The notes under the pieces are model-generated. The model did no database searches. It was given only the letters and a program-made list of their open reading frames with translations, and was not told the DNA's origin. Shown in pieces: positions 23,484 through 59,866 of a stretch of 64,000 nt of DNA (position 1 is the stretch's first letter; each line of letters opens with the position of its first letter). The stretch covers positions 26,380 to 90,379 of the forward strand of contig JANPFP010000066.1 of assembly GCA_031423495.1 (NCBI GenBank), written 5' to 3'. This DNA comes from Acidobacteriota bacterium. Its GTDB lineage: Bacteria > Acidobacteriota > Blastocatellia > RBC074. The position numbers were made by a program, and so were the translations under genes.

Positions 23484-24920
23484 CTAGGCCGTTAATTCTG
23501 GAATCACGCGGCCTTCAACGACGGTCGGCACTTCGTTGCGTCCGTTGTGTTTATAAGCCGTCTTGAATTGGTTCAAGCCCATCAAATGCAAGATGGTCGC
23601 GTGAATGTCGTGTACGTGTGCGCGTTTCTCAATCGCCTTGAACCCAATCTCATCCGTAGCGCCGATGATCTGCCCGCCCTTGATGCCTGCGCCCGCCATC
23701 CACATCGAGAAACCCCACGGATTGTGATCGCGTCCGTCGCCTTTTTCGTTAAACGGCGTGCGTCCGAACTCGCCGCCCCAAATGACCAGCGTCGAATCAA
23801 GCAAGCCGCGTCCTTTCAAATCGGCCAACAAGCCCGCAATCGGCAGGTCGCTCGCGCCGCACCATTTTGAATGATTGGCTTCGATGTTCGCGTGCGCATC
23901 CCAGCCGCTGCCCGAACCGGAATAAAGTTGAATGAAGCGTACATCGCGTTCGACCAGACGGCGCGCGAGCAAACACATCGTACCGAACTTGTCGGTCTTC
24001 GCTTCGCCGATGCCGTAAAGTTTTTTGGTGATCTCAGTTTCTTTCGACAGGTCTACGGCTTCAGGCGCAGCGGATTGCATGCGATAGGCGAGTTCATACG
24101 AATTCAACCGAGCGAGCAATTCGGTGTCGTCGGGTTTGTCGGCGGAATAACGTTCGTTGAGTTGTTTGAGAAAATCGAGTTTGCCGCGTTGTTGCGCGTC
24201 GCTCACCGCATCAGGCGGCTTGACGTAATAGACCGGATTCGTACCCGCGCGAAATTGCGTGCCTTGATAAACCGCCGGTAAAAATCCGGCGCTCCAGTTT
24301 TTGGTGCCGCCTAGCACTTCGCCGCCATCTGCCATCACGACGTAAGTCGGCAGGTTCTGATTCGCCGTGCCCAACCCATAAGTCGCCCACGCGCCTAACG
24401 AAGGCCGCCCCGCCAGAATCGAACCCGTATTCATTTGGCAAACGGAGCCTACGTGATTGAGGCCGTCCATCCAGCACGAACGAATGACGGCGAGGTCGTC
24501 TGCGTGCTGGGCAATGTTCGGCAACCAATCGCTCACGGGAATACCGCTTTGCCCGTAATTTTTGAATACGCGCTGACTCGGCATGATCGTATTCGACGCC
24601 GTCCCCATCGCCGTGATCGGACGCCCAAACGACAACGGCATCGGCTGCCCCGCGAGTTTCAATAGTTCAGGTTTGGGGTCGAACGTGTCTATATGCGAAG
24701 GCCCGCCTTCCAAAAACAACCAGATGACCGATTTGGCGCGCGGCGTGTGATGCGGCTTTTTCGCGGCGAGCGGATCAAGCCGGTTGCCCTCAGCAGCGAA
24801 TCCGTCTGTGCCGAGGATAGAAGACAACGCGAGCGCAGAAAGTCCGGCGCTGGTTTGTTGCAAGAAGTGGCGACGGTGCAGAAAGTGATGTTGAGCAGAA
24901 TCAAGTAAATCAGCTTTCAT
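23484..24920 (-). CDS. DUF1501 family protein (sulfatase-like fold), Tat signal
   Basis: Tat motif [20 protein letters not shown], and DUF1501-type sequence throughout. The track start at 24986 reads through one arm of a 31-bp inverted repeat; the second Met (MKADLLDS, 24920) is preferred. Confidence 0.75.
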   Translation of the reverse strand: MKADLLDSAQHHFLHRRHFLQQTSAGLSALALSSILGTDGFAAEGNRLDPLAAKKPHHTPRAKSVIWLFLEGGPSHIDTFDPKPELLKLAGQPMPLSFGRPITAMGTASNTIMPSQRVFKNYGQSGIPVSDWLPNIAQHADDLAVIRSCWMDGLNHVGSVCQMNTGSILAGRPSLGAWATYGLGTANQNLPTYVVMADGGEVLGGTKNWSAGFLPAVYQGTQFRAGTNPVYYVKPPDAVSDAQQRGKLDFLKQLNERYSADKPDDTELLARLNSYELAYRMQSAAPEAVDLSKETEITKKLYGIGEAKTDKFGTMCLLARRLVERDVRFIQLYSGSGSGWDAHANIEANHSKWCGASDLPIAGLLADLKGRGLLDSTLVIWGGEFGRTPFNEKGDGRDHNPWGFSMWMAGAGIKGGQIIGATDEIGFKAIEKRAHVHDIHATILHLMGLNQFKTAYKHNGRNEVPTVVEGRVIPELTA

Positions 24921-24950
24921 ACTATTTCTCGTTTGGGTATCAACTGCCGT

Positions 24951-25051
24951 GTCAGTAGCCCGCGCGTAAGCAAGGGCTGCCTTCAAAATGTGTGCCTTGC
25001 AGCAACGGGCGCAAACTAGAGGCAGCCCTTGCTTACGCGCGGGCTACTGAC
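24951..25051. promoter_or_regulatory. Perfect 31-bp inverted repeat (gtcagtagcccgcgcgtaagcaagggctgcc / ggcagcccttgcttacgcgcgggctactgac) with a 39-nt spacer, lying between the DUF1549/1553 gene and the DUF1501 gene.
   Basis: Read directly from the sequence: stems at 24951–24981 and 25021–25051. Confidence 0.6.
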
Positions 25052-25061
25052 ACGCGGCCAA

Positions 25062-27260
25062 TCAATTCACGTAAACAAACTCGTTTGCATTCAACAGCGC
25101 GTGGCAAAAATCGGTCAACGCCGCCGGACGTGCGCCTAGCAAGGTCGTTTGCTTTTGAATGAACTCACGCGCGGCTTGCCGTTCGTCAGTTGCAGGCATG
25201 CGCGCCAACGCCAAGCGATAAGCCAGCGTAACTTGCGCATCCAAATCTTCGCCCGCCGTGCGTTGCACTCGTTCGGCAAAGGCTTGCGCAGCCGCCAAGA
25301 TCGTTTTGTCGTTCAACAGATTCAACGCTTGTGGCGCAGTCGTCGTGACCGAACGCCTGCCGCAGCTTTCGTGCGTATCGGGCATATCGAACGCCTGAAA
25401 CAGCGGATAGCGTGAGTTGCGCCGCACGAAGGCGTAAATGCTGCGGCGATTTTTGTTGGCTTCGGTTTCTTTGCGGTTCCAGCCGCCACGCACTTCCATC
25501 TCTTTGGGAATTTCAGGGAAGATCGAGGGGCCATACATCTGTTCATTCAACGTGCCGCTCACGCGCAACACCGCATCGCGGATTTCTTCGCCGCTCAAGC
25601 GCGCGCGGCGAAAGCGCCATAGCAAATTGTTGTCAGGATCAACCTGCGCGGCCTGTTCGTTAAACGTTGCGGCCTGTTGATAAGCATTCGACAGCATCAT
25701 CAGTCGGTGCATTCGCTTGAGGCTCCAGCCCTGTTCGACAAAAGTTGCCGCCAGCCAATCCAATAACTCAGAGTGCGTTTCGGTTTCGCGCATCTTTCCA
25801 AAATCGTTGGGCGAACCCACGATGCCGCGTCCGAAATGGTGATGCCAGAGGCGATTGACCATCACGCGCGCGACCAAAGGATTTTTCGGATCAGTCAGCC
25901 AGTTCGCCAACGCAGTGCGGCGTCCGGTCGAGACGACTTTGCCGCACGGTTCAACCTGCGCGTCACGCGGTTCGATGATCGTCAGATAACCGGGCTGAAC
26001 TTCTGCGCCGTAATTGTCATAGCCGCCGCCATTGAGCAAAAAGTGTTTCGGCGCTTCGAGGCCTACGTCAGTGATGCCCGAACCCAGCGGCAGCGGCGCG
26101 GGTTTGCTCGCATCAAATTTTGCCAACTCAGTCCGCAAGGCTTCCCACTGTTTTTTCTGTTCGCCTTTCAGCTTTTGCGCAACGCCGTTGCCGTCTTCGT
26201 CTACGCCGTAATTCAACTGCCATTGCGCCTTGTGATACATCAGCCATTGCATCGTGTCGCGCTTTGCTGCTGGCGTATTCACCGCCAATTGAATCTCTGC
26301 CGGATACTTGTCGAAGTTGTCGTCATAGATCGCTTTGCGCGCGACGGCTTCGAGTTTATCGAGTTGTTCTTGCAAGTCTTTGGTTTGGGCTTCCCACGCG
26401 GCGCGCTTGCGGGCGTAATCATCCTGCTCTGCTTTCGACACCAATACGTAATCATCTTTTGCGCGCGTCGCAGCAAAGAAAGCCTGCAAGCGGTAATAGT
26501 CTTTCTGCAACACCGGATCGTATTTGTGATCGTGGCAGCGCGCGCAGGCATAAGTCGTACCGAGCAAGGCCGCGCCGACCGTATCAGTGATGTCGTTCAA
26601 AATTTCCTGCCGCCGCTGCATCAAATTGCGCGCATTGTATTCATCGGGGTAATGCCGATTGAAACCCGTGGCGACCAATGCTTCAGGGTCATCCGGCCAC
26701 AACTCATCGCCCGCGATTTGTTCTTTGATGAAGCGGTCGTAAGGCTTATCGGCATTGAACGCGCGAATCACATAATCACGATAACGCCACACGTGAGGCC
26801 GCGTGTCGTCGGCTTTGAATCCGTCGCTCTCGGCGTAACGCGCTACGTCAAGCCAATGCCGCGCCCACTTCTCGCCGTAACGCGGACTCGCCAGCAAGCG
26901 ATCAACGACACGCTCAAACGCTTTCGGCGAACGGTCGTTGACGAAAGCGTCAACCTCTTCCGGCGTAGGCGGCAAGCCCGTCAAATCAAACGTAGCCCGT
27001 CGCAACAGCGTCACCTTGTCCGCCGCTGCGGCAGGCTTGAGCGCACTGGCTTCGAGTTTTTGCAGGATGAAAGCGTCTACCGGCGACTTGATCCACGTGC
27101 GCTTCTTAACCGCAGGCACGGCGGGTTTGGTGACAGGCTTATAAGCCCAATGGCTCAGATGCTCTTTGGTGAAAGCCGCATGATCGGCGAGTGTCAATAC
27201 ACCACAACCCAACGCAACCAACGCGGCGAGCAAGGCTTTGAAGCGAAAAGAGACGCGCAT
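25062..27260 (-). CDS. DUF1549 + DUF1553 domain protein (PSD1-type), with signal peptide
   Basis: CARCHDHKYDP (the DUF1549 motif), and a C-terminal DUF1553-like region ...[39 protein letters not shown]. It forms the typical pair with the downstream DUF1501 gene. Confidence 0.8.
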   Translation of the reverse strand: MRVSFRFKALLAALVALGCGVLTLADHAAFTKEHLSHWAYKPVTKPAVPAVKKRTWIKSPVDAFILQKLEASALKPAAAADKVTLLRRATFDLTGLPPTPEEVDAFVNDRSPKAFERVVDRLLASPRYGEKWARHWLDVARYAESDGFKADDTRPHVWRYRDYVIRAFNADKPYDRFIKEQIAGDELWPDDPEALVATGFNRHYPDEYNARNLMQRRQEILNDITDTVGAALLGTTYACARCHDHKYDPVLQKDYYRLQAFFAATRAKDDYVLVSKAEQDDYARKRAAWEAQTKDLQEQLDKLEAVARKAIYDDNFDKYPAEIQLAVNTPAAKRDTMQWLMYHKAQWQLNYGVDEDGNGVAQKLKGEQKKQWEALRTELAKFDASKPAPLPLGSGITDVGLEAPKHFLLNGGGYDNYGAEVQPGYLTIIEPRDAQVEPCGKVVSTGRRTALANWLTDPKNPLVARVMVNRLWHHHFGRGIVGSPNDFGKMRETETHSELLDWLAATFVEQGWSLKRMHRLMMLSNAYQQAATFNEQAAQVDPDNNLLWRFRRARLSGEEIRDAVLRVSGTLNEQMYGPSIFPEIPKEMEVRGGWNRKETEANKNRRSIYAFVRRNSRYPLFQAFDMPDTHESCGRRSVTTTAPQALNLLNDKTILAAAQAFAERVQRTAGEDLDAQVTLAYRLALARMPATDERQAAREFIQKQTTLLGARPAALTDFCHALLNANEFVYVN

Positions 27261-27417: not shown

Positions 27418-28758
27418 TTAGGTTGATCTTCCATCGCCGTCATAAAAGCCCGCGCGGCGATAAGATTCGTCGAGCATCTCTACGACGTGTTTGACTTCGC
27501 ACGAGGCGTCGAACATCCGCACGCCCGCGCCGAGTTGCATGTGGCAGCCGGGGTTGGCCGTGACCAGCGTGTCTGCGCCGGTGGCTTTCACTTTATGAAT
27601 CTTGTCTGAGAGCAGCGCCTCTGACATTTCGGGTTCGCTGAGGTTGTAAATGCCCGCGCCGCCGCAGCAATCCTGAAAGCCCGCGAGTTGTTTGTATTCA
27701 AGTCCCGGAATCGTTTGCAGCACTTTTTGCGGCGCGGTTTGTACGCGCTGGGCGTGATAGAGGTGGCACGGCGCGTCGTATGTCACGGTTTGATTGAGTT
27801 CCGCACCGGCCTTGATTTCGCCGTCTGCTAAAAACTCCGTCACGTCTTTGACGCGCGCGGCAAAGGCTTTTGCGCGTTCGGCATAGGCTTCATCGTGCTT
27901 GAGCAATTCGCCGTATTCTTTTAACAGCGCGCCGCAACCCGCTGCGTTGATGATGATCGTGGCGTTGGCGGCTTCATGCTCGAAGGCTTCAATGTTGCGC
28001 CGCGCGAGTTGGCGTGCAGTGTCGAGTTCGCCCGAATGCGCGTGCAATGCGCCGCAACAGGCTTGCGCGCCCACGTGTTGATTGCGCGCCCCGTTCACCG
28101 CCAGCACGCGCGTCGTCGCGTCGTTGACGTGCTTGAATAAACCTTCCATCACACAACCGGTGAACACTGAAACGGCCCGCGGTTTCGTCGTCTGGCATTG
28201 CGCCGCATCGCGCCGCGTCGCTTTACCGGTCGGGCGCGTCGTATCCAACAACGAAAACGCAAAATCCATTTGCGCTGATTGCCGTTTCAAAAAGCCCGAA
28301 CGCAAAGCCCACTTCGTCAGTGGAAAGCTGCGCACGAGGCGCAACAATAAAAAGTTCAACCGCAAGCGCCACGGATAAGGAAACATATGCCGCAACGCCA
28401 GCTTCAACATGCTTTTCTGAAACAAGCCGCCCCGCTTGGTTGGATTGGCAGTTTTTTGTTTGAGCAAATCTTCGCGCGCGGCCTCGAGCAGGAAGCCGTA
28501 ATTCACGCCCGCCGGACAAGCCGTTTCGCACGCGCGGCAACCCAGACATAAATCAATGTGTTTTTGATAAGCGGGCGAACTGGCTTCGAGACGGCCTTCG
28601 GCGACGGCTCGCATCAGGTAAATGCGTCCGCGCGGACTGTCGTTTTCGTTGCCCAGTTGCTGATAGGTCGGACACGCAGGCAAGCACAGGCCGCAATGTA
28701 TGCAGCCCAATAGCTTGTCGGTTTCGTTCTGTAATGCGGTGGTTAGTCCAGTACTCAT
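27418..28758 (-). CDS. glcF: Fe-S oxidoreductase, glycolate oxidase iron-sulfur subunit GlcF-like
   Basis: Two CxxCxxCxxxCP ferredoxin motifs (CIHCGLCLPACPTY, CLGCRACETACPAG) plus C-terminal CCG-type cysteine-rich domains. The track's N-terminal extension (LLPFAFCLL) comes from the heptamer repeat; start set at MSTGL (28758). Confidence 0.75.
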   Translation of the reverse strand: MSTGLTTALQNETDKLLGCIHCGLCLPACPTYQQLGNENDSPRGRIYLMRAVAEGRLEASSPAYQKHIDLCLGCRACETACPAGVNYGFLLEAAREDLLKQKTANPTKRGGLFQKSMLKLALRHMFPYPWRLRLNFLLLRLVRSFPLTKWALRSGFLKRQSAQMDFAFSLLDTTRPTGKATRRDAAQCQTTKPRAVSVFTGCVMEGLFKHVNDATTRVLAVNGARNQHVGAQACCGALHAHSGELDTARQLARRNIEAFEHEAANATIIINAAGCGALLKEYGELLKHDEAYAERAKAFAARVKDVTEFLADGEIKAGAELNQTVTYDAPCHLYHAQRVQTAPQKVLQTIPGLEYKQLAGFQDCCGGAGIYNLSEPEMSEALLSDKIHKVKATGADTLVTANPGCHMQLGAGVRMFDASCEVKHVVEMLDESYRRAGFYDGDGRST

Positions 28759-28763
28759 TGAAA

Positions 28764-28880
28764 TCAAAAGGCAAAAGGCAAAAGGCAAAAGGCAAAAGTG
28801 AAGAACCGCACGCAAGGTAAAAATAAAAGAGAGCAAGTGCCGCCCTTTTGATTTTTGCCTTTTGCCTTTTGCCTTTTGAT
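28764..28880. repeat. Inverted pair of heptamer arrays (AAAAGGC)x4–5 and (GCCTTTT)x4 flanking a 46-nt core; copy 1 of a dispersed element
   Basis: Read directly from the sequence: 28764–28798 atcaaaaggcaaaaggcaaaaggcaaaaggcaaaag and 28845–28880 cttttgatttttgccttttgccttttgccttttgat. It lies between the glcE-like stop and the glcF start. Confidence 0.8.
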
Positions 28881-28905
28881 TTTTTCCATCGTCAAGAGTG
28901 AGAGC

Positions 28906-30294
28906 TTATAGCCCCGCCACAAATCGCCCGAAATTCAGCCGATTGTGCGGGTCGTATTGTTTTTTCAAGCCTTGCATCAACGTCGTCGTAGCGCCCGCGT
29001 CGCCCCATACGTCGAGTTGATTTTTGAGTTCGTCGGGTGCGCGCAAGATGACCATGTGTCCGCCGTTTTGTTTGGCGAATTCGCGCAACTCAAGCAACAG
29101 CTTGAACTGATGTTTGCTGCGTAACTCGCTTAACAAATCGGCGCTGCCGTGAATGCGCAGCACGCCGTTGGCCGCGTGCGCGCGCAACATCGCCGTCGGC
29201 ATCAGGCGTTGCGCGGTTTCAATCAGCTTCCCCAAATCAGTCGGCAACGCGACGGCGCGCAAACTGAAACAGCGTTCGTCGCTGGTTTCGCTGGTGTAAT
29301 AGTCGTGCCAAAACGTACTTGCGTCCGTGCTGCTCAACACCGTATTCGCCATGCCATTGCCCAACCGCGCGGCTTCGCCGGTTTGCCACGCGACGGTTTC
29401 CTGCTCTTCGTTGACATAACGCAACACGAGCGCGAAACGGTTTTCATCAATCGGTAAGCCGGATTGTGGCGAAAGCAATTCGGTCGCGGTGGGTTGCAAG
29501 TCTGACTCGGTGAGCCGCGCCATCAAGGCGCACAGCGTCGCCGCATCGTTCGCGTAAAAGACTTGCGTCGCATCGGCTTGCGGCAAGGCGCGCATCTTGA
29601 AAAATAACTCAGCCAGAATGACCAGCGTGCCGAAACTGCCTGTATAAAGTTTGCAGAGTTCGTAACCGGCTACGTTTTTGACGACCTTGCCGCCCGCGCT
29701 GGTGATTGTTCCATCGGCGTGTACGACGCGGCATCCGACCAGCCAGTCGCGGGGCGTGCCGTAACCCGCGCGCAAAGGCCCATAACTCGCAGTCGCCACC
29801 GTCGCGCCAATCGTCGAGCGTTCGTCACCAAACGGGTCGAGCGGCAAAAACTGATTGTGTTCTGCCGCGCGCAAATTGAAATCGCGCAAGCTGACACCGG
29901 CTTCAACGGAACACGTCAAATCGGCGGGTTCGTATTCAAGCACGCACGCCATCTTCGCCGTCGAAACGATCAGATGAAATTGCACGATGGCGTTGCCCAT
30001 TTCGAGCCAAGTACCCGCTCCCGCCGGAGCTACGCGCCAATTGGATTCGTGCGCGAGTTTCATCATCGCGCTCAGTTCTTCGATATTGTGCGGATAGGCG
30101 ATAACGCGAGTTTCTGCTTCGCCGAGGCGAAAGGCGTTGCCGTGAGTTTGCGTGACGCGGTCTGCGCCGAAGGCCTCGGCTAATCGTTGCGCAACTGCCG
30201 CTGGCGTGACCGAAGGCACAGCCGTCAGGCTCGAACTTTCCATAAGATTCAGTGTTTGGAGTAATGCAGAATAGTTGATGAGTGATGTCATCAA
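28906..30294 (-). CDS. glcE: FAD-binding oxidoreductase, glycolate oxidase FAD-binding subunit GlcE-like
   Basis: GGKVVKNVAGYELCKLYTGSFGTLVILAELFFKMRALP matches the GlcE region GGEVMKNVAGYDLSRLMVGSYGCLGVL. It sits directly upstream of glcF on the same strand. Confidence 0.65.
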   Translation of the reverse strand: MMTSLINYSALLQTLNLMESSSLTAVPSVTPAAVAQRLAEAFGADRVTQTHGNAFRLGEAETRVIAYPHNIEELSAMMKLAHESNWRVAPAGAGTWLEMGNAIVQFHLIVSTAKMACVLEYEPADLTCSVEAGVSLRDFNLRAAEHNQFLPLDPFGDERSTIGATVATASYGPLRAGYGTPRDWLVGCRVVHADGTITSAGGKVVKNVAGYELCKLYTGSFGTLVILAELFFKMRALPQADATQVFYANDAATLCALMARLTESDLQPTATELLSPQSGLPIDENRFALVLRYVNEEQETVAWQTGEAARLGNGMANTVLSSTDASTFWHDYYTSETSDERCFSLRAVALPTDLGKLIETAQRLMPTAMLRAHAANGVLRIHGSADLLSELRSKHQFKLLLELREFAKQNGGHMVILRAPDELKNQLDVWGDAGATTTLMQGLKKQYDPHNRLNFGRFVAGL

Positions 30295-33333: not shown

Positions 33334-33336
33334 ATC

Positions 33337-33414
33337 GGTTGTCAGTTGTCAGTTGCCAGTTGCCGGTTGTTAGTTCCTTTCTGAACCGACAATCGGCAAC
33401 CGACTACCGATAAC
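33337..33414. repeat. Heptamer tandem array (GTTGYCA)x5 followed by inverted degenerate copies, in the iscS 5' leader
   Basis: Read directly from the sequence: ggttgtcagttgtcagttgccagttgccggttgttagttcc ... ccgacaatcggcaaccgactaccgataacc. Confidence 0.7.
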
Positions 33415-34205: not shown

Positions 34206-34231
34206 TGTTGACGTTCTCCTCGGTGATAAAA

Positions 34232-34368
34232 AAGGTACAGCAACCTTTCCAGGTTGCTGAGGGCTTGTGCAAAAAAACACACTGAGAGAATGGTAAGGCG
34301 TGTGTATGTCCCGCTTGGTTTAGTAGACGCGACACCAATCCGCAGCAACCTGGAAAGGTTGCTGTACC
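34232..34368. terminator. Two copies of an identical 9-bp-stem hairpin (cagcaacc-tttcc-aggttgctg) in inverted orientation, lying between the PSCyt gene stop and the DUF1080 start
   Basis: Read directly from the sequence: 34236–34262 and 34341–34366. Confidence 0.4.
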
Positions 34369-34370
34369 GT

Positions 34371-37300
34371 TCACTTCGTGATCGTTTCGTCCAAATTCAA
34401 TAACACATTGGCGACCATCGTCCACGCCGCGAGTTCGGGCGAAGGCACCGATGATGAGGAAGCCTGTTTGACCACTTTAAGGGCTTCGTCAGCGTGCAAC
34501 TTGAAGTAAGCGAGTTGCTGCTGATAAAGCGCGGTGAGCCGTTCGAGTTCGGCTTTGTGCGGAGCGCGCGCTACGCACAGGCGCGTGCCGTAAGCCAAAT
34601 GCGACGATGCATCTGCACCTTCTTTCATCATTCGGCCAGCTAAGGCACGCGCGGCCTCAAACATTGCTTCGTCGTTTAACAGGTTCAGCGCCTGCAACGG
34701 CGTATTCGTTCGCGTACGCCGCACGACGCACGACTCGCGGCTGATGCCGTCGAAATTCAACATCATCGGATAAGGCGACGAGCGGCGCAGGAACGTATAC
34801 AAACTGCGGCGATAGCGGTCTGCGCCTTTGGCGTTCATCCATTTTTCGCTGCTGTAAGGCGCTTTCCAGATGCCTTCGGGTTGCAACGGCATGACCGACG
34901 GGCCGCCGACTTTTTGCGTCAACAAGCCGCTGATGGCGAATACAGTATCGCGCAACATTTCGGCTTCAAGCCTGAAACGCGGGCCGCGCGCGAGCAAGCG
35001 GTTGTAAGGGTCTTTCTCTTGCAAGGCGGGTGAACTAGCCGCCGCTTGCCGATAAGCCGATGAAGTCACGAGCGTACGAATGAGCTTTTTCATGCTCCAA
35101 TTCATGCCGCCTTGGTTAGCGGGTTTGCTGAACTCTACGGCGAGCCAGTCGAGCAATTCGGGGTGCGAAGGCGTGGCGGATTGCAGGCCGAAATCTTCTG
35201 ACGTCTCGACGATGCCGCGTCCGAAAAGCTGTTCCCAAAAACGATTGACTGCGACGCGCCCGACCAACGGATTGTCTGAACTGACCAGCCATTGCGCGAG
35301 TCCCAGGCGATTGGCGGGCGCGCTCTCAGGCAGCGCGTGCAACACGGCGGGCGTAGCCGCAAATACCTTTTCGCCTTTGCTCATGAAGTTGCCGCGTTCG
35401 CGCAAAAACGTGGCGGGGCGTTCAGCGGATTTCACTTCCTGCATCACCAGCGCCGACGTGATGCGCAAGGCTTTGAGTTCGTCGCGCAGCTTTTCTAACT
35501 GGTCGCGCGTCGCTTTGAACTCAGGCACGAGCGAACGATAACGATCGGCCAAATCCTGCTGTTGTTTGGCCGTACGCGCGGTTACCGCTTGGGCGAGAAC
35601 CGCTTGTTGCCGCGCTGAAATGTTCACGATCTCAAACGGCGTCTTGCTGTTCGTCACCGACAATCTGAAGCGTCCCATCGTTTGGCAAAGCGCGCCGCCT
35701 TGATGCCGCAACGTGATTTTTAATTGCGTACCGGTGGCCGCGCCAAAAGGCAAAGCGGTAGTGAATACGGCTTGGCGTGCTAGCCGTTGAGCTACATCAC
35801 CATTTGGGTCGTTGGTCGCATTGATCGCCCAACCCGCCGGACGATCAGCCACGCGCGTGTCGGTCTTGTCGGCAAAAATTTCGCGCGGTTCGGGTTTGTA
35901 AGCCGAATCATTCACGCGCAGATCTTTCAGCTTGATAGCTTGGCCTTTGCCGTTAAGCGGTACGGTTTCGACCGCGAAACCCGTCAGCAAAAAATTGCCA
36001 TAAGGGTCACGTCCCGGCCCGCCTTGCGGCAAGCTGGCGTCGGGCAACACTTCAAGCCGCAACGCAGTGATATTCGCCAGTTTGGTTTGCGCCGTGATGG
36101 TGAAAATTTCGCTCTCGCTTTGCGTGCCTGACACCAGCAACGAATGATCGCTTTGGGCGTTGAGTTGCGCGCCGCTGGCAGCTTCGGCCTTGAGCGGTTT
36201 GAGCGTCGTCCAGCTTTGCGGAGCATTCAGCAAAGCCTTTTCCCAAGCGGCTTGCGCGGCTTGGCGTTCAGGCGCATCGGCTTTGAGTTCGGCTTCGAGC
36301 TTTTTGATTTCGGCGTTCAGGCGTTGGCGTTGCGCGGCCTGTTCGGGCGAAGGCAAATCAAGCGCAGGCTCTTTCACAAAGCGCGTGAATTCCTCTTTCG
36401 TCACGCTCTGATAAGCGATTTCGTACTCGCTGTTTTCAAAAAACGCCAACAGCTTGTAATAGTCTTTTTGCGTGAACGGGTCGTATTTGTGGTTGTGGCA
36501 TTGCGCGCAACCGACGGTGGAACCCAGCCAGACCGTGCTGGTCGTATTCACGCGATCAACCAGTGTTTCCCAACGCGCTTCGTGCGGATCAACGCCACCT
36601 TCCTGATTAATCATTGTGTTGCGATGAAAGCCCGTCGCAATGCGCTGTTCTTCCGTAGCGTTCGGCAGCATGTCTCCCGCGATTTGTTCGATGGTGAATT
36701 GATCGAAAGGCTTGTCGGCGTTGAGTGCATTGATGACCCAGTCGCGGTACTTCCACATCACGCGCAGGTTGTCTTTTTCGTAACCGTTCGAATCGGCATA
36801 GCGCGCCAAATCCAACCACGGACGCGCCCAGCGTTCGCCATAAGCAGGCGACGCGAGCAGCTTGTCCACCACCTTTTCATAAGCGTTGGCTGAAGTGTCG
36901 GCGATGAATGCGTCTAGGTCTTGCGGCGAAGGCGGCAGGCCGATCACGTCGAGATATACGCGCCGCAACAAGACGGCTTTGTCCGCTTCAGGCGAAGGCC
37001 GCAATCCTTCTTTTTCGAGGCGCGCGAGAATGAAACTGTCTACGGCGTTGCGCACCCAGGCTTGGTTTTTGACGGTCGGCAAAGCGACTTGGCGCGGCTT
37101 CACATACGACCAATGTTTCGGCGTGTCGGATTTGAGATTTGAGATTGCGTCATCGGGCCAACTCGCGCCTTCATCAATCCAGCGAGCGATGAGGGCGATT
37201 TGTTCAGGCTTGAGCGCGCTGGCTTTGAGCGGCATTTGCACTTCGCCGCCTTCGCCTTTGAGGCGCGCCATCAAACGCGAAGCCTTGCTGTCACCAGCGA

Positions 37301-43136: not shown

Positions 43137-43206
43137 CATGTAGTCCCGCCTTCAGGCGGAATGTCTTGAGTGAGCGAGACATTCCGCCTGACGGCGGGAC
43201 TACATG
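43137..43206. terminator. 29-nt imperfect inverted repeat (one mismatch) with nested palindromes, immediately after the stop at 43133; probable terminator or attenuator
   Basis: catgtagtcccgccttcaggcggaatgtc ... gacattccgcctgacggcgggactacatg. Confidence 0.45.
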
Positions 43207-44373
43207 CCTCAAACATCCCCCATGCCATACAAAATCCTTGTCGTAGATGACGAACCCGACCTTGAAATCCTCATCACCCAACGCTTCCGCAAACGCATTC
43301 GCGCCGAGGAACTCACCTTTCTTTTTGCCAGCCATGGCGAAGAGGCGCTGGTCAAATTACAAGCCGACAACCTCGTAGACGTCGTGCTCACCGACATCAA
43401 TATGCCTGTGATGGATGGCCTGACGCTGCTGTCCCGTTTGCGTGAAGCGCATCCGCTGCTGCGTTCCGTGATTGTCTCGGCGTATGGCGATATGCCGAAC
43501 ATTCGCACGGCGCTCAATCGTGGCGCGTTCGATTTCATCACCAAGCCAATTGATTTTCAGGATTTAGAAATCACGCTTGACCGCGCCATCAGCGACGCCG
43601 TCGAGCGCAAACAGGCGGCGCAGGATCGTGACCGCTTGCTGGCCTTGAGCCGCGAACTCGAACTGGCGCGCAACATTCAATCCGCGCTCGTTCCGCATAC
43701 CTTCCCGCAACACGAAAGCCTGTCGGTCTATGGCTCGATGATTCCGGCGGCGGAAGTCGGCGGCGATCTGTTTGATTGTTTCATGCTTGATGACCAGCGG
43801 CTGGCCTTCACCATCGGCGATGTGTCCGGCAAAGGCATCGCGGCGGCACTGTTTATGGCCGTCAGCCGCACGGTGTTGCGCGTAGCCGCCAGCAAAGGCT
43901 TGTCGCCGCAAGCCTGTCTGCTGGAAGCGCACCAGTTTCTGTATGGCGAGCGCCGCGCTACGTCCCACTTCGTCACCTGTTTTTACGGCATTCTCGATCT
44001 GGCGACCGGGCAATTGGAATACAGCCGCGCCGGACACAATCCGCCGTATCTGGTGCGCGGCGATGCGGTGCAAACGCTGGATGCGGCGAGCGGGTTGCCG
44101 CTGGGCATGATCAGGCGCGTGAACTACGACACGGCAACGGTGCAGCTTGCTCCCGGAGACACGCTGCTGCTGTTCACCGACGGCATCACCGAAGCGATGA
44201 ATCCGCGACAAGAGGAATATGGCGAAGAGCGGCTGGTGCAATTGCTCGGCGAGCGATCGTCGGCGCTGGCTGTGGAGGAGTTAGTTCGGTTGGTGACACA
44301 AGAGGCGATTGCGTTCGCCGAGGGCGCACCAGCTTCGGATGATATGACGGTTTTAGGCGTGCGGTATGTTTAG
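43204..44373 (+). CDS. Response regulator (REC) fused to a PP2C/SpoIIE-type serine phosphatase
   Basis: YKILVVDDEPD...VVLTDINMPVMDGL (REC) and GDVSGKGIAAALFMAVSRTVLR (SpoIIE/PP2C). An alternative start at 43222 (MPYKIL) would avoid the hairpin. Confidence 0.85.
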   Translation: MPQTSPMPYKILVVDDEPDLEILITQRFRKRIRAEELTFLFASHGEEALVKLQADNLVDVVLTDINMPVMDGLTLLSRLREAHPLLRSVIVSAYGDMPNIRTALNRGAFDFITKPIDFQDLEITLDRAISDAVERKQAAQDRDRLLALSRELELARNIQSALVPHTFPQHESLSVYGSMIPAAEVGGDLFDCFMLDDQRLAFTIGDVSGKGIAAALFMAVSRTVLRVAASKGLSPQACLLEAHQFLYGERRATSHFVTCFYGILDLATGQLEYSRAGHNPPYLVRGDAVQTLDAASGLPLGMIRRVNYDTATVQLAPGDTLLLFTDGITEAMNPRQEEYGEERLVQLLGERSSALAVEELVRLVTQEAIAFAEGAPASDDMTVLGVRYV

Positions 44374-44377
44374 TTAT

Positions 44378-44529
44378 GGAGTGCTGCGGCTCGACGCAGC
44401 TTTTCGTTCGCCGCGATTCGACTCAGGTTACCCCAAGCGGTCAAATGCGAACGCAACGCTGCGGCGATATTAAGGGTTACCCCAAGCGGTCAATTGCGAA
44501 CGAAAAGCTGCGTCGAGCCGCAGCACTCC
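44378..44529. promoter_or_regulatory. Structured intergenic element: a perfect 34-bp inverted repeat enclosing two 27-nt direct repeats (gttaccccaagcggtcaa[a/t]tgcgaacg)
   Basis: Read directly from the sequence: stems 44378–44411 and 44496–44529; DRs at 44427–44453 and 44476–44502. Confidence 0.6.
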
Positions 44530-44551
44530 ATGTCGCACTGAAAGGGCTGAA

Positions 44552-47500
44552 ATGAAGAAAAATCAAAAGGCAAAAGGCAAAAGGCAAAAGGCAAAAGTGG
44601 AATGCGGAAGCAGAGCTTTTTCTGTATTTCCGAAATCAAGTTCCGAACTTTTTCCTTTTGTGTCTGGCTTTCTGAACTTTTGCCTTTTGCCTTTTGCCTT
44701 TTGCCTTTTGATTTTTCTGCTGCTTGCCTTTCCGGCGTTCAGCCAGGAGCCCGCGCTAAAGGCCGAAATCGGCATGCCCTTGCTGCGCAATTACACGTCG
44801 AAGGAATACGGAGCCTCCGCCCAGAACTGGAGCATTCTGCAGGATCGTCGTGGCGTGCTCTACGTCGGCAACCTCGGAGCTGCCGTGCTGGAATACGACG
44901 GCGTTACCTGGCGCAAGATCAGCATCCCCGGCGCAGGTCGTTCCCTCGCCCTGGACGCTGCGGGAAAGATTTGGGTGGGTTCTCAGGCGGACTTCGGTTT
45001 CCTGGAACCCGACGCCAACGGCACGCTGCAATACGTCTCGCTGGTTGAGAAGATTCCGCCGGAGCACCGCAGCTTCAACGATGTCTGGCGGGTGCTGTCC
45101 ACTCCACAGGGAACCTTCTTTCAATCCTACGCGCGCCTCTTCCGCTGGGATGGCCAGCGGGTGCAGGTCTGGGCCACGAAGACGCGCTTTGAAGCGCTCT
45201 CGGAAGTGCGTGGTCGCATCTATACCTCGCAGATCGGCATCGGTTTGCAGGAAATTGTGGGCGATGAATTACGCAACCTGCCCGGTGGCGTGGCCTGGAA
45301 AGATTCCATCAAGCTCATTCTGCATCCGTATGACGAACAGCGCATCCTGGTCTCTGCCCAGCGGGAAACGCTAACACTTTACGATGGTGAGCAGGTGACC
45401 CTGTTTCCGACTCAGGCGGACGATCATCTCAGGAAAAGCGAACTCTACACGTCCACGCCGCTCCCCGATGGCGGCTTCTGCCTCAACACTCAGGCTGGTG
45501 GCGCGGTGATCATTGAGCGCGATGGTCGGCTGCGCCGCATTCTGGACAAGGATTCCGGGCTGCAAACTCAGAAGGTCAATGCGGCTTTTACTGATCGCGA
45601 GGGTGCCTTATGGCTGGCGCTTGGCTCCGGCATCTCCCGCGTGGACATCAACTCCCCGATTGCTCTCTTTTCCCGCCAAAGCGGTTTCGATGTCATGCGC
45701 CACGGCGGCTCGCTCTACGTTACGTCTTTACACACGGGCGTTGCGCTCTACCGCCTGGAGCCGAATCGAACCACTGGCCTGGCCGCCTTGCAACCGATCC
45801 CTTCTCGTGCTGTTCAGGCTTATCGCCTGCTATCCTTCCTTGATCCCGCTGGCAAAGCGCCGCCCCAGTTGCTCGCCGCCGCCTTTTATTATGGTGTCAT
45901 GAAAATCGAGGGCGATGTAATTTCCCCGACCCTGCCACGCGAGCAAGGGCTGGTAGAGTGGGGGGACACGCTGCTGCAATCCCGGCAATTTCCTAACCGC
46001 GTGTTTGCGGGGTACTCGGGTAGCCTGTCTTCCATCCGCTGGGAAAACGGTCAATGGATTAATGAGGGCCGCATTCCCACCAACAGCGTTGTGAGGTCAT
46101 TGGCTGAAGAGGGCGATGGCACGCTTTGGGCTGGTACCAGCACGGGCGGCGTGCTGCGCGTGGTCGTCCCCGCCACCGGGATGCGTGATGCGAAAGTGGA
46201 ACGCTTCACTGAAAAAGACGGGCTGGGGAAACGCGTGCATGAGGTGCTCCACGCAGACGGCCAACTTTTCGTTATTCCGTCCCCGACGAAGAACATCCTG
46301 CGCTGGGATGGAGCGGCTCGTCGTTTTATCCCTGACAACCGCTTCCTGCTTCCGCTGCCAGACCCCGAGGCGGGGGCTAGATTGCAGTTACTCCCAAACG
46401 GCGACATCTGGTCCAGAACTTCAACACTCAACGATCAACGGCAGGGCATCTTTCGCCGCCAGGCTGATGGAACCTATCAACTCGACGAAGCGCCTTTCCG
46501 CGGCTTGTCCCGGTTCGGGGTTCGCAACGTCCTGTCTGAGTCGGACGGCAGCCTCTGGATTGCCGGTGATGACGGCCTCGTCCGCTTTGACCAGCGGATG
46601 AAACCCACCGCCGCGCCGCCTTTCTCCGCGTTGGTGCGCCGCGTCAGCGCAGGGGCGGACGCCATCGTCTTCGGTGGAGCAACACTCGCCGCTCCGCTGC
46701 GTCTGCCCTTCGCCCGCAACTCGCTGCACTTTGAATTCGCCGCGCCGAGTTACGGCGACGAAGCGGGAACCGCATATCAATACCGCCTGGAAGGAGCCGA
46801 CAAAGACTGGTCGGGCTGGGGCAGGCAAACCGAAGCCAACTACAACAACCTCGGCCCCGGCGCGTACCGGATGCGCGTCCAGGCGCGCACCAGTGATGGT
46901 CGCCTCAGCGAAGAAGGAGCCTTCAGCTTCACGATCCTGCCGCCGTGGTATCGCACGTGGTGGGCTTATGGTTTTTATGCGCTGCTGCTGGCGGCGTTGA
47001 TTTATGCGGCTGCGCGCCTGTTGCGGCGACGTGTCGAGGCGCGCGAACAAGCGAAAGCCGCGCAACGCGAAGCGGAGTTGCGCGCGGAAACTGCTCTGCG
47101 CGAAGCCGAGTTGCGCGCCGATGCCGCCGCCGCGCAGGCGAAATCGCTGCAAGCCGAAAACGAGGCTTATCAACGCCTCAAAGCGACGCAGGAACAATTG
47201 CTGGTGCAGGAAAAACTGGCTTCGCTCGGAGCCTTGACCGCAGGCATCGCGCACGAGATCAAGAATCCGCTGAACTTCGTCAACAACTTCGCCGACCTGT
47301 CGGTAGAACTGATGGACGAATTGCGCGAAGACATCGAAAAGAACAAGGCCGCGATTCCTGCGAAGGATTACGAGAACATCGAAGCCTTGCTCGACGACCT
47401 GACCGGCAACGCCAAAAAGATCAACGAACACGGCAAACGCGCCGACGGCATCGTGCGCAGCATGCTGCTGCATTCGCGCGGGCAAGCGGGCGAACGCCAA

Positions 47501-48001
47501 CCGACCGACATCAACGCGATGCTGGACGAATATGTGAACCTGACGTATCACGGCATGCGCGCGCAGGATTCATCCTTCAACGTCACCATCGAACGCGCGC
47601 TGGCAAGCGATGCCGGAATGGTCGAGGCGATTCCGCAAGACCTGAGCCGCGTGTTTTTGAATTTGCTGAACAACGCCTGTTACGCGGTGAACGACAAGGC
47701 GAAAAAGAACGGCGCAGGCTTTGTACCGAAGCTGCGCGTGAGTTCGGTGAACCTGGGCGATGCTGTCGAGATTCGCATCCGTGACAATGGCATGGGCATT
47801 CCGCCGGAAGTGCGCGACAAAATCTTCAATCCGTTTTTCACGACGAAACCTACGGGGCAGGGAACGGGCTTGGGTCTTTCGATCAGTCACGACATCGTCG
47901 TGCAGCAACACCACGGACAACTGGAAGTGGAAACCGAACCGGGCGAATACACGGAATTCATCGTGCGTTTGCCGCGCAGCAGTGGATTACGGCTGCGATG
48001 A
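44552..48001 (+). CDS. Sensor histidine kinase with periplasmic beta-propeller repeats and a Y_Y_Y domain, TM segment, coiled coil, HisKA and HATPase domains
   Basis: [42 protein letters not shown] (Y_Y_Y), [18 protein letters not shown] (H-box), [13 protein letters not shown] (G2 box). The true start is uncertain because the 5' end runs through the heptamer element; the second arm encodes a signal-peptide-like [23 protein letters not shown]. Confidence 0.85.
44564..44713. repeat. Copy 2 of the inverted (AAAAGGC)n / (GCCTTTT)n heptamer-array element, at the 5' end of the histidine kinase gene
   Basis: 44564–44597 caaaaggcaaaaggcaaaaggcaaaaggcaaaag; 44677–44713 cttttgccttttgccttttgccttttgccttttgatttttc. 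Confidence 0.8.
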
Positions 48002-54718: not shown

Positions 54719-58400
<3,682 letters not shown>

Positions 58401-58432
58401 TATGACTCCAAATAAGAAACAGTAATTCTATT

Positions 58433-59752: not shown

Positions 59753-59866
59753 TTGCGTCTTTCCTGATTTTGCCTATTCGACCTGTGGGGCGTGGCCCCT
59801 ATTCATTTTCAGCCATTCCGGCAAGTCAGAGACTTGCCGCACATCACTGCGGCAAAGCCGCAGCAA

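What the first reader, a model, noticed from the sequence alone, without database searches (positions are those of the whole stretch)
28764..28880. Dispersed inverted heptamer-array element (AAAAGGC)n … (GCCTTTT)n, copy 1, inside the glcE–glcF junction
Two arrays of 4–5 heptamers in opposite orientation flank a 46-nt core, forming a ~35-bp AT/GC-mixed stem. A second copy with a different core lies at 44564–44713. This is a candidate REP/MITE-like small mobile or regulatory element. When read through, it adds a spurious LLPFAFCLL hydrophobic N-terminal extension to ORF calls.
Basis: seen in the sequence. Interest (0 to 1): 0.55.

Follow-up and report, generated by a model that had tools for sequence, protein, structure and literature searches.

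The report
Palindromic heptamer-repeat hairpin element family
The finding is real: it is one copy of a large, previously undescribed family of small palindromic DNA repeats in soil Acidobacteria, built from the 7-base unit AAAAGGC, that fill the short gaps after stop codons, fold into very long hairpins, and in some genes (including the second copy here) are even read as the protein's export signal.

Summary
Copy 1 (28761-28884) has 38-nt arms of AAAAGGC/GCCTTTT units and a 46-nt core. Copy 2 (44556-44718) has perfect 43-nt arms. Both fold far better than shuffles.

The family is widespread. A truncated metagenome scan gave 71 paired elements with one consensus, GAAAATC-(AAAAGGC)n-AAAA(A/G)TG-AAGAA / unique core / mirror image. 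Lengths are 80-184 bp.

- Position: elements begin a median 14 nt after a stop codon and often end 0-12 nt before the next start codon.
- Transposon marks: there is no target-site duplication, and almost every core is unique.
- Conservation between orthologues: arms diverge 3%, coding flanks 10%, cores 19%.
- The glcE-glcF gap: it carries this element in four lineages (GlcF 89-100% identical), unrelated long hairpins in four others, and none or a small one in two.

I conclude it is an STRR-like/REPIN-like dispersed palindromic repeat. It most probably acts as an intercistronic or 3'-end RNA hairpin; that function is inferred, not shown.

The "spurious LLPFAFCLL extension" holds for copy 1. At copy 2 the arm most likely encodes the sensor kinase's signal peptide.

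Verdict: new member of a known kind, moderate interest.

The parts
28761..28798 (.). Copy 1, arm A: AAATC + (AAAAGGC)4 + AAAAG (on the + strand)
   Evidence: (I14). It is identical in orthologue L262 and 92-95% identical in L119.
28799..28844 (.). Copy 1, 46-nt unique core (the hairpin loop region)
   Evidence: It is 88% identical to L262 and 65% (with a 6-nt indel) to L119. It evolves faster than the flanking genes.
28845..28884 (.). Copy 1, arm B: CTTTT-GATTTTT-(GCCTTTT)3-GATTT(TT)
   Evidence: Together with arm A it forms a 38-bp stem, -63.1 kcal/mol, z = -8.3.
28906..30294 (-). Upstream cistron: FAD-binding oxidase subunit (GlcD/E-like). Its stop codon at 28908-28906 lies 21-24 nt before the element.
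   Evidence: Pfam FAD_binding_4, E = 1e-28. Gene order matches L120, L121, L259, L260 and L262.
27418..28758 (-). Downstream cistron: GlcF-like Fe-S subunit. The true start is ATG 28758-28756, 2 nt after the inverted repeat.
   Evidence: Translation. The N-terminus MSTGLTTALQNETDKLLGCIHCG matches 120 homologues. The ORF listed from TTG 28836 is the read-through artefact.
44556..44598 (.). Copy 2, arm A: AGAAAAATC-(AAAAGGC)4-AAAAGT
   Evidence: I10: 43 nt, 100% complementary.
44599..44675 (.). Copy 2, 77-nt unique core. It has no stop codon in the frame of the downstream gene.
44676..44718 (.). Copy 2, arm B: ACTTTT-(GCCTTTT)4-GATTTTTCT. In frame it encodes ..[13 protein letters not shown].., which runs into ..LLLAFPAFS|QEP.
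   Evidence: Homologues all have a signal peptide at this position.
44552..48001 (+). Sensor histidine kinase (Reg_prop, Y_Y_Y, HisKA, HATPase_c). Its 5' end overlaps copy 2. The exact start codon is undetermined (ATG 44552, an in-frame GTG in the core, or a TTG in the arm).
   Evidence: Pfam, translation and homologue N-termini.
43204..44373 (+). Upstream gene of copy 2: response regulator fused to a SpoIIE phosphatase
   Evidence: Pfam.
44376..44531 (.). A different long hairpin element lying directly between the upstream stop codon and copy 2. It has 36-nt perfect arms, each containing a small terminator-like hairpin.
   Evidence: (I15).
33335..33410 (.). An inverted heptamer-array hairpin of a second motif family (GGTTGYC type). 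It fills the gap between stop codon 33419-33417 and ATG 33333 on the minus strand.
   Evidence: Fold -41.7 kcal/mol, z = -8.4. The same family occurs in L039 at 940-1030.
24948..25054 (.). Another dispersed hairpin family with 35-nt perfect arms. A member of this family replaces the heptamer element at the glcE-glcF junction in L261.
   Evidence: (I16), (arms about 85% identical).

Best explanation
Copy 1 is one member of a large dispersed family of palindromic heptanucleotide-repeat elements in Blastocatellia-type Acidobacteriota.

Consensus: (G)AAAATC-(AAAAGGC)3-7-AAAA(A/G)TG-AAGAA, then a unique core of 5-127 nt, then TTCTT-CA(C/T)TTTT-(GCCTTTT)n-GATTTT(C). Total length is 80-184 bp.

Shown:
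- The family is multicopy.
- Copies sit in the short gaps just after stop codons, often filling the whole gap up to the next start codon.
- They are inherited at orthologous sites. Their arms are kept far more constant than the neighbouring genes, while the core drifts.
- They are one of several unrelated long-hairpin families that occupy, and replace each other in, the same intercistronic slots in this lineage.

Inferred:
- The element is co-transcribed with its neighbours, because no room is left for a promoter.
- It folds into a 35-45-bp RNA stem.
- That stem acts as an intercistronic or 3'-end structure: a barrier to 3'-to-5' exonucleases and/or a double-strand-specific (RNase III-type) processing site.
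- Between convergent genes it acts as a bidirectional pause or terminator. This would uncouple the fates of the upstream and downstream cistrons, as REP/BIME, Correia and cyanobacterial STRR hairpins are thought to do.
- It spreads as selfish DNA by a mechanism that leaves no target duplication. Arm length is adjusted by 7-nt slippage, and the two arms are kept matched by selection or templated correction.

In any frame and on either strand the arms read as a basic stretch (KGKRQKA)n followed by a hydrophobic stretch (AFCLLPF)n. Copies landing at the 5' end of exported-protein genes can therefore be read as signal peptides. Copy 2 is such a case.
For: Real repeat and hairpin.

Family size and consensus:
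- The genome scan hit many Acidobacteriota MAGs with the inverted arrangement.
- The metagenome scan gave at least 120 loci and 71 paired elements sharing the same end and inner-boundary motifs.
- By my count, about 18 of the first 80 contigs end within 100 nt of the element, as assemblers do at repeats.
- Several hits lie on contigs of one assembly (ERZ1066125, Ga0268299).

Position:
- 36 co-directional, 10 convergent and 7 divergent contexts.
- Stop-to-element distance is a median 14 nt, with 56 of 65 within 40 nt.
- Start codons lie 0-12 nt after the element for GlcF, RbfA, AtpH, TatD, PgsA and ClpA.

Orthologous conservation: the window, L262/L263 and L119 all carry it at the same junction.

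Divergence between orthologues: arms 3.2%, flanks 10.1% (p = 1.6e-5), cores 18.8%.

The slot attracts hairpins of unrelated sequence: L121/L258 (-86 and -76 kcal/mol), L259 (-62) and L261. The L261 hairpin belongs to a family also present at window 24948-25054.

Within the window, seven long hairpins all sit next to stop codons.

Precedents:
- Heptamer STRR hairpins lie between hupS and hupL in cyanobacteria (PMC2670836).
- Inverted GGGAATC heptamer pairs in Xanthomonas lie about 28 nt after the upstream ORF (PMC4692102).

Signal-peptide use:
- Homologues of the copy 2 gene all carry signal peptides.
- L039 is a c-type cytochrome with arm-encoded ..[18 protein letters not shown].
- L137/L151 is an fn3 lipoprotein starting [31 protein letters not shown].
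- L163/L197 is an FG-GAP/ASPIC protein.
Against: - No transcript data exist, so the RNA role is inference by analogy.
- The stem is A/U-rich with a large loop and is not picked up by the terminator scan.
- Copy 1 cannot be an efficient terminator, because glcF starts 2 nt after it.
- Mismatches between the arms of copy 1 are not G-U-compatible on the mRNA strand. This follows from reading.
- Arm sequence, not only pairing, is conserved. A simple RNA-stem model does not predict that.
- Native arms fold only marginally better than chimeric arms: -0.506 versus -0.476 kcal/mol per nt, p = 0.04.
- Evidence for transposition of whole elements is thin. Only L198/L220 share a core with different flanks.
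- No enzyme candidate was found.
- Gene contexts come from a heuristic ORF picker.
Confidence: 0.55

Rival explanations
1. Purely selfish or neutral repeat. On this view it is a non-autonomous mobile palindrome (REPIN/MITE-like) with no host function. It is seen after stop codons only because insertions anywhere else are removed by selection.
For: - Many copies with the same arms sit in unrelated contexts.
- Contigs break at the element.
- Different hairpin families replace each other at one slot even among close relatives: L261 at 94% GlcF identity versus L262 at 93%.
- L120 does without any hairpin.
- Lengths show no coding constraint.
Against: - Arms diverge three times more slowly than adjacent coding DNA, which needs selection or continuing homogenisation.
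- Five of the eight distinct lineages examined at this one junction carry a very stable hairpin of some kind.
- There is no target duplication.
- No transposase was seen.
Confidence: 0.3
2. In-place simple-sequence-repeat growth. On this view each locus independently expanded a heptamer by polymerase slippage. The second arm was then copied from the first by template switching within a quasi-palindrome. No transposition is involved.
For: - Heptamer repeats are over-represented in many bacteria, and slippage has been proposed as the cause (PMC4692102, discussion).
- Many other heptamer motifs occur in the same contigs and in the window.
- Unit numbers vary from 3 to 16.
- Left and right unit numbers are correlated, rho = 0.41.
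- There is no target duplication, and cores are unique.
Against: - The same non-repeat end motif (A|AATC..GATT|T) and inner boundary (AAAAATGAAGAA/TTCTTCATTTTT) recur at dozens of unrelated loci.
- Orthologues 7-11% diverged keep exactly the same number and order of units. That is unlike an unstable microsatellite.
Confidence: 0.1
3. Primarily an intrinsic, bidirectional transcription terminator.
For: - It lies just after stop codons.
- In 10 convergent gene pairs it is the only structure between the two stops, at 5-38 nt from each.
- It has an A-rich 5' flank and a T-rich 3' flank.
- T runs of 5-6 follow the stem in both copies.
Against: - In 36 co-directional contexts the next gene often starts 0-12 nt after the element, with no room for a promoter. 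These genes include glcF, atpH and rbfA.
- The T-rich tail is itself paired in the stem.
- Loops of 46-77 nt are atypical.
- The consensus scan does not flag it.
Confidence: 0.15
4. A phase-variation switch. On this view, changes in the number of 7-nt units shift the reading frame or the promoter spacing of the downstream gene.
For: - Seven is not a multiple of three.
- Copy 2 lies inside the 5' end of an ORF.
- Heptanucleotide repeats drive phase variation in Haemophilus (PMC8262952, PMC12721329; titles and abstracts seen).
Against: - Unit numbers are identical between orthologues 7-11% diverged.
- Most copies lie between housekeeping genes.
- The organism is a soil bacterium, not a host-associated pathogen.
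Confidence: 0.03

Closest known systems
Cyanobacterial STRR (short tandemly repeated repetitive) heptamer sequences, including the hairpin between hupS and hupL
   Same: Both are tandem 7-nt units dispersed in intergenic DNA. Both can form a hairpin between two co-transcribed subunit genes. The suggested roles are the same (transcript stability, coupling, termination) and remain unproven (PMC2670836).
   Different: - The phylum differs: Acidobacteriota rather than filamentous cyanobacteria.
- The unit differs: AAAAGGC.
- Here the inverted pair with defined end and inner-boundary motifs is the rule. About 70% of arrays not at contig ends have a partner.
Xanthomonas GGGAATC heptamer repeats in convergent inverted pairs (Rehm et al. 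2015, PMC4692102)
   Same: - Heptamer arrays of typically about 4 units.
- 70-75 inverted pairs per genome.
- 89-93% intergenic.
- Much closer to the upstream ORF (about 28 nt) than to the downstream one.
- Length variation between species.
   Different: The Xanthomonas repeats are G-rich and were studied as G-quadruplex formers. AAAAGGC cannot form a G-quadruplex. The Xanthomonas repeats were not reported to be conserved at the same genes between species, whereas these are conserved at orthologous sites.
REP / REPIN elements mobilised by RAYT transposases (PMC3116915, PMC3337134, PMC3733652)
   Same: Both consist of two inverted repeat units around a less conserved spacer that form a long hairpin. 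Both are extragenic, multicopy, without target duplication, and often lie at the 3' ends of genes.
   Different: - The arms here are tandem heptamers, not short palindromes.
- There is no GTAG/CGTC head.
- No RAYT was seen.
- Spacers here are essentially unique.
- Other hairpins in the same window (44376-44531, 24948-25054) look more REPIN-like than this one.
Correia/NEMIS elements of Neisseria and other bacterial MITEs (my own knowledge of De Gregorio et al. and Buisine et al.)
   Same: Both are elements of about 100-150 bp with terminal inverted repeats. Both are co-transcribed with neighbouring genes. In Correia elements the hairpins are cleaved by RNase III and change mRNA levels.
   Different: Correia elements have a TA target duplication and a conserved interior. 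Neither feature is found here.
Rickettsia palindromic elements (RPE) inserted in frame in protein-coding genes (my own knowledge, Ogata et al. 2000)
   Same: Both are palindromic repeats that can sit in frame inside ORFs and be translated.
   Different: RPEs insert in the body of proteins. Here the translated copies sit at the N-terminus and supply a signal-peptide-like segment. There is no sequence relationship.

Membership tests
STRR / dispersed heptanucleotide tandem repeats | Tandem repeats of a 7-nt unit | tested here: met
   Period 7, 4.9-5.0 copies, 85-100% matches.
STRR / dispersed heptanucleotide tandem repeats | The same unit recurs at many intergenic loci of a genome | tested here: met
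   There are 4 arrays in the window. The truncated genome scan gave 118 or more genome loci and the truncated metagenome scan 120 or more loci. Several hits lie on contigs of the same assembly. A whole-genome count for the source organism was not possible.
STRR / dispersed heptanucleotide tandem repeats | Host is a (filamentous) cyanobacterium, as in the original definition | tested here: not met
   The nearest GlcF homologues are named Blastocatellia/Acidobacteria. The paired elements lie mostly in Acidobacteriota MAGs.
Inverted heptamer pairs (Xanthomonas type) | Two arrays in convergent orientation close together, intergenic, and nearer to the upstream ORF | tested here: met
   The median distance after the stop codon is 14 nt.
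Inverted heptamer pairs (Xanthomonas type) | G-rich unit able to form a G-quadruplex | tested here: not met
   The unit AAAAGGC has only GG. This follows directly from the sequence.
REP / REPIN | Inverted doublet forming a hairpin, with a less conserved spacer | tested here: met
REP / REPIN | Each unit is itself a short imperfect palindrome with a conserved GTAG or CGTC head | tested here: not met
   The arms are direct heptamer arrays. No GTAG or CGTC is present in the consensus.
REP / REPIN | A cognate RAYT (Y1 transposase) gene in the genome | not testable with these tools
   None was found among 30 window ORFs scanned against Pfam. The rest of the genome is not available, because exact-protein look-ups for the source failed.
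MITE (including Correia/NEMIS) | Terminal inverted repeats | tested here: met
MITE (including Correia/NEMIS) | Target-site duplication flanking the element | tested here: not met
   No direct repeat of 3-8 nt at any boundary offset from 0 to 8 exceeded the permutation expectation in 65 elements.
MITE (including Correia/NEMIS) | Interior sequence shared among copies and derived from a parent insertion sequence | tested here: not met
   68 cores fall into 43 clusters. Most multi-member clusters are the same locus sampled twice or residual heptamers.
Intrinsic terminator | G+C-rich stem with a short loop, followed by an unpaired U tract | tested here: inconclusive
   T runs of 5-6 follow both copies. 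However, the stem is A/U-rich, the loops are 46-77 nt, the T-rich tail is partly paired, and the consensus scan does not call it.
Known RNA families (Rfam 15) | Match at the gathering threshold | tested here: not met
   No match anywhere in the window.

The most novel reading that the evidence does not exclude
The family is a frame-independent, strand-independent 'portable signal-peptide cassette'.

Seven and three share no factor. (AAAAGGC)n therefore reads as the basic peptide KGKRQKA in all three frames, and (GCCTTTT)n reads as the hydrophobic peptide AFCLLPF in all three frames. The palindrome gives the same reading on both strands. The conserved inner motif AAAAATGAAGAA supplies an ATG-AAG (Met-Lys) start.

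On this reading, the ability to donate or extend export signals is a selected property that helps the family persist and rewires protein localisation. Examples are copy 2, the L039 cytochrome c, the L137/L151 lipoprotein and the L163/L197 FG-GAP protein. The mRNA hairpin between the n-region and h-region codons would gate translation of those genes.
Probability: 0.12. Interest if true: 0.8.

Novelty: new member of a known kind. Interest (0 to 1): 0.5.

Why it matters
1. Annotation. These elements create false N-terminal extensions. P0002 in a public JGI annotation is a live example. Elsewhere they hide real start codons, and they break metagenome assemblies of abundant soil Acidobacteria.

2. 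Biology of repeats. Heptamer-repeat hairpins have been an unexplained feature of cyanobacteria and Xanthomonas for decades. This is a third, distant phylum with a well-defined consensus. It shows orthologous conservation with arms more constrained than coding DNA. It also shows clear turnover of unrelated hairpins at one intercistronic slot. Together these give a tractable comparative system for asking how such repeats spread and what they do.

3. Protein evolution. Several exported proteins appear to use the element's arm as their signal-peptide core. This is a concrete and testable example of selfish palindromic DNA being recruited into coding sequence.

Tried and rejected
- Rfam: no family matches anywhere in the window.
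- Insertion into the loop of pre-existing hairpins: flank complementarity beyond A|AATC..GATT|T is at background (3.8 versus 3.4 of 12). Only a few loci show it, such as L164 and L230. Rejected as a general rule.
- Target-site duplication: none.
- The element as a translated upstream ORF coupling glcE to glcF: an ATG-to-TGA frame spans copy 1, L119 and L262. However, element lengths modulo 3 are 19/19/31 over 69 copies. There is no general coding constraint, so this was dropped.
- Enrichment of ATG just upstream of the left arm: 7 of 66, about what the flank composition predicts (my estimate). Dropped.
- Strong within-element co-variation of arms: the effect is only marginal.
- Type I toxin-like small hydrophobic ORFs on both strands: no conserved ORF, length or promoter. 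Rejected.
- Terminator consensus scan: uninformative for loops longer than 8 nt.
- Transposase or RAYT in the window: none in 30 ORFs. ORF 48645-49691 has a DUF4351 domain (Rpn/YhgA-like), but there is no evidence linking it to the element.
- Identifying the source genome by exact protein look-up: failed three times.
- Elhai et al. 2008 on small dispersed repeats could not be read.
- Viral contigs: 16 hits to (AAAAGGC)3, a few in inverted heptamer arrangement, with no sign of a phage origin.
Full report
**1. Observation**

Tandem Repeats Finder reports a perfect (CAAAAGG)4.9 at 28765-28798 and (CCTTTTG)5.0 (85% matches) at 28844-28878. The second copy has 4.9 + 4.9 perfect units at 44564-44597 and 44677-44710.

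- Copy 1: 28761-28798 / 28845-28882, 38 nt, 95% complementary, 46 nt apart.
- Copy 2: 44556-44598 / 44676-44718, 43 nt, 100% complementary, 77 nt apart.

The 14-mer AAAAGGCAAAAGGC occurs 11 times in the window against 0.04 expected. As RNA, copy 1 folds at -63.1 kcal/mol (z = -8.3) and copy 2 at -91.2 kcal/mol (z = -10.5). No Rfam family matches anywhere in the window.

**2. Local context**

Copy 1:
- It lies on the minus strand between the stop codon (28908-28906) of a FAD_binding_4 oxidase subunit (28906-30294) and the ATG (28758) of a GlcF-like Fe-S protein (27418-28758).
- About 21-24 nt separate the stop from the element, and 2 nt separate the element from the ATG.
- The N-terminus MSTGLTTALQNETDKLLGCIHCG matches 120 homologues. 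The ORF that starts at TTG 28836 and reads LLPFAFCLL is therefore an artefact.
- The same artefact exists in a public gene call, P0002: [32 protein letters not shown]....

Copy 2:
- It lies between a response-regulator/SpoIIE gene (43204-44373) and a propeller-type sensor histidine kinase (44552-48001).
- It is preceded by a different perfect hairpin at 44376-44531.

No transposase was found among 30 window ORFs.

**3. The family**

The inverted arrangement with a variable core was concentrated in Acidobacteriota: Blastocatellia, Pyrinomonadaceae, Vicinamibacterales and Terriglobia.

A metagenome scan with the more specific AATC(AAAAGGC)3 also hit its limit at 120 loci, mostly soil and rhizosphere contigs. 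Of the arms not at a contig end, about 70% have an inverted partner within 350 nt. This gave 71 non-redundant paired elements.

They share this consensus:
- Left half: A|AATC-(AAAAGGC)3-7-AAAA(A/G)TG-AAGAA.
- Middle: a unique core of 5-127 nt.
- Right half: TTCTT-CA(C/T)TTTT-(GCCTTTT)n-GATT|T.
- Total length is 80-184 bp, median 108.

By my count from the table, about 18 of the first 80 contigs end within 100 nt of the element. That is what assemblers do at multicopy repeats. Several hits lie on large contigs of the same assembly.

Cores are almost all unique: 68 cores fall into 43 clusters, and the multi-member clusters are mostly the same locus sampled twice. Two observations hint at movement of whole or composite elements:
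- L198 and L220 share a core (85%) but have different flanks.
- L127, L135 and L232 carry the same nested G+C-rich palindrome in the core at three different loci.

There is no target-site duplication. Complementarity does not extend into the flanks beyond one or two bases, except in a few loci.

Arrays without a partner often adjoin arrays of other heptamers: AGTAGTC, TGGAACC, AAGTTGA, TCAAGCC, CCAAGAC. The window itself holds an inverted-array hairpin of a second motif (GGTTGYC type) at 33335-33410, with -41.7 kcal/mol and z = -8.4. It again lies exactly between a stop codon and an ATG. The same second family occurs in L039.

**4. Position relative to genes**

I used a heuristic ORF picker (longest open frame weighted by GC3). 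It classed 36 elements as lying between co-directional genes, 10 between convergent genes and 7 between divergent genes. Some of the divergent calls are errors; L119 is one.

The distance from a facing stop codon to the element has a median of 14 nt, and 56 of 65 distances are at most 40 nt. In convergent pairs the element lies 5-38 nt from both stops.

Where a gene start faces the element, an unambiguous Met often follows within 0-12 nt. Examples are GlcF, RbfA, the ATP synthase delta subunit, TatD, PgsA, ClpA and an ABC ATPase. The element thus typically fills a short intergenic gap almost completely. It is therefore not specific to 5' ends.

**5. Orthologous comparison**

The glcE-glcF junction was recovered from ten loci, eight distinct lineages. 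(L263 repeats L262; the L121 and L258 hairpins are related.)

| Locus | GlcF identity to window | What the junction carries |
|---|---|---|
| Window | 100% | Heptamer element |
| L262 / L263 | 93% | Heptamer element |
| L119 | 89% | Heptamer element |
| L261 | 94% | Different hairpin with 36-nt arms |
| L121, L258 | 74% | Related G+C-rich hairpin, -86 and -76 kcal/mol |
| L259 | 74% | Third hairpin type, -62 kcal/mol |
| L260 | 69% | 12-bp hairpin |
| L120 | 75% | 46-nt gap, no structure |

Sources.

The arms of the L261 hairpin are about 85% identical to those of the window's other element at 24948-25054.

Two things follow. First, hairpin families are mobile enough to replace each other at one slot among close relatives. 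Second, the slot is either strongly permissive or favours a hairpin.

Divergence over five orthologous pairs:

| Region | Differences | Divergence | Fisher test against flanks |
|---|---|---|---|
| Arms | 10/313 | 3.2% | p = 1.6e-5 |
| Flanks (mostly coding) | 223/2200 | 10.1% | - |
| Cores | 42/224 | 18.8% | p = 2.7e-4 |

Unit number and order are identical between the window and L262. They differ from L119 only by substitutions. That is not the behaviour of a free-running microsatellite.

**6. Translation of the arms**

Seven and three share no factor. (AAAAGGC)3 therefore reads K-R-Q-K-A-K-G and (GCCTTTT)3 reads A-F-C-L-L-P-F in every frame, and the palindrome gives the same reading on both strands. 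This follows directly from the sequence.

For copy 2:
- The homologues of the sensor kinase all begin with a 22-30-residue signal peptide, a few residues before the conserved AE(I/V)GMP(V/L)LRNY.
- In the window only [11 protein letters not shown]|QEP follows the arm. There is no ATG between the arm and that motif.
- Translation must therefore start in or before the arm, and ..[11 protein letters not shown].. is part of the hydrophobic core of the signal peptide.

Other loci show the same pattern:
- L039: a c-type cytochrome, which must be exported, has ..[18 protein letters not shown] with a lipobox directly after the arm.
- L137/L151: an fn3 lipoprotein starts [31 protein letters not shown]. 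Its ATG lies in the conserved AAAAATGAAGA motif.
- L163/L197: an FG-GAP/ASPIC protein starts MKIKNQKSKIKNQK...FAFCLLPF.
- L020 (YCF48/BNR) and L088 are likely further cases.

This is not a general property of the family. Element lengths modulo 3 are 19/19/31, and most downstream genes are cytoplasmic with their own start codons.

**7. Interpretation**

What is shown:
- A real, abundant, dispersed palindromic heptamer-repeat family of Blastocatellia-type Acidobacteria.
- It sits in the gaps after stop codons.
- It is inherited at orthologous sites, with arms under stronger constraint than the neighbouring genes.
- It is interchangeable with other long-hairpin families.
- It is occasionally recruited into signal-peptide coding sequence.

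What is inferred:
- It is co-transcribed with its neighbours.
- It acts as an RNA hairpin: an exonuclease barrier, a double-strand-specific processing site, or a pause or terminator between convergent genes.
- The analogies are REP/BIME, Correia elements and cyanobacterial STRR hairpins (PMC2670836), and the very similar inverted GGGAATC heptamer pairs of Xanthomonas (PMC4692102).

It cannot be an efficient terminator at copy 1, because glcF starts 2 nt downstream with no room for a promoter.

The mode of spread is unknown:
- The lack of a target duplication and the unique cores argue against a classical MITE.
- The absence of palindromic arm units and of a GTAG/CGTC head argues against REP/REPIN membership.
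- The shared end and inner-boundary motifs argue against purely local repeat expansion.

**8. Limits**

- The source genome could not be retrieved.
- Gene contexts rest on a heuristic.
- No expression data were available.
- A key paper on cyanobacterial small dispersed repeats (Elhai et al. 2008) could not be read.
- My statements about Correia elements and RPEs rest on my own knowledge.

**9. Verdict**

- The 'spurious extension' holds for copy 1 but probably not for copy 2.
- It is a new member of a known kind (heptamer-repeat hairpins).
- Two observations are worth following up: the turnover of hairpin families at one slot, and the frame-independent signal-peptide coding.
- Interest: 0.5.

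Noticed in passing
window 44376-44531, 24948-25054, 34231-34371, 52635-52823: Four further long intergenic inverted repeats were seen. Arms are 35-49 nt and 87-100% complementary, with loops of 37-91 nt and unrelated sequences. Each lies next to a stop codon. The arms of three of them contain a small terminator-like hairpin followed by a T run, an architecture like REP doublets (REPINs). The arms at 24948-25054 contain GTAG.
   Followed up: partly
window 33335-33410; L039 940-1030: A second family of inverted heptamer-array hairpins (GGTTGYC type) exactly fills a stop-to-ATG gap in the window. It also occurs in an unrelated Acidobacteriota MAG that carries the AAAAGGC family.
   Followed up: partly
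L261 70-190 versus window 24940-25062: In a relative with 94% identical GlcF, the heptamer element at the glcE-glcF junction is replaced by a member of the hairpin family found at window 24948-25054. This is turnover of unrelated palindromic elements at one slot.
   Followed up: yes
window 1-18240 (minus-strand sense): The region holds a very long array of diverged 261-nt (87-codon) repeats at 60-87% identity. It probably belongs to a giant repetitive surface protein whose ORF runs off the window end.
   Followed up: no
window 49840-49869 and 49401-49467: A (CACTCCG)4.3 heptamer array lies inside the DUF1501 ORF 49688-51175. It encodes TPHSALLTPQS just after the putative Tat-type signal region. 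A 12/24-nt repeat encoding (E/Q)GKQ lies inside ORF 48645-49691, which has a DUF4351 (Rpn/YhgA-like) domain.
   Followed up: no
window 23674-24775 versus 49878-50985; 26493-27110 versus 40794-41426; 36664-36756: Long, diverged inverted matches (71-84%) reflect paralogous PSCyt2/PSD1 (DUF1549/DUF1553) and DUF1501 gene pairs. These are present three times and twice in the window respectively.
   Followed up: partly
window 58000-60000 and 60580-61254: This is a low-G+C island (0.435 against about 0.56). It carries a DUF3644 gene, and an AbiEii-type toxin gene lies next to it. It may have been acquired horizontally.
   Followed up: no
L127 2141-2227, L135, L232: The same G+C-rich palindrome (GGTAGGGGCAGGGCTTGTCCCTGCCCGG...) is nested in the core of the heptamer element at three different loci.
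   Followed up: partly
L134, L152, L159, L217, L238: A recurrent composite repeat was seen: GCGGCTGCGCCGCAAAA-AATC(AAAAGGC)n-AAAAATCTCTGCGCCGGGCCGCGGGCCGG...AATCGTCAATGACTCAAT. Here the AAAAGGC array has no inverted partner.
   Followed up: no
L242/L255, L246, L248, L257 (IMG/VR contigs): Some contigs classed as viral also carry inverted arrays of AAAGGNN-type heptamers around a short core.
   Followed up: no
P0131, P0139, P0144, P0151 (homologues of the copy 2 gene): Several public gene calls for the sensor-kinase family start at the conserved internal Met of ..GMPVLRNY.. and therefore lack the signal peptide. The 5' ends of these genes may be disrupted or hidden by similar elements.
   Followed up: no
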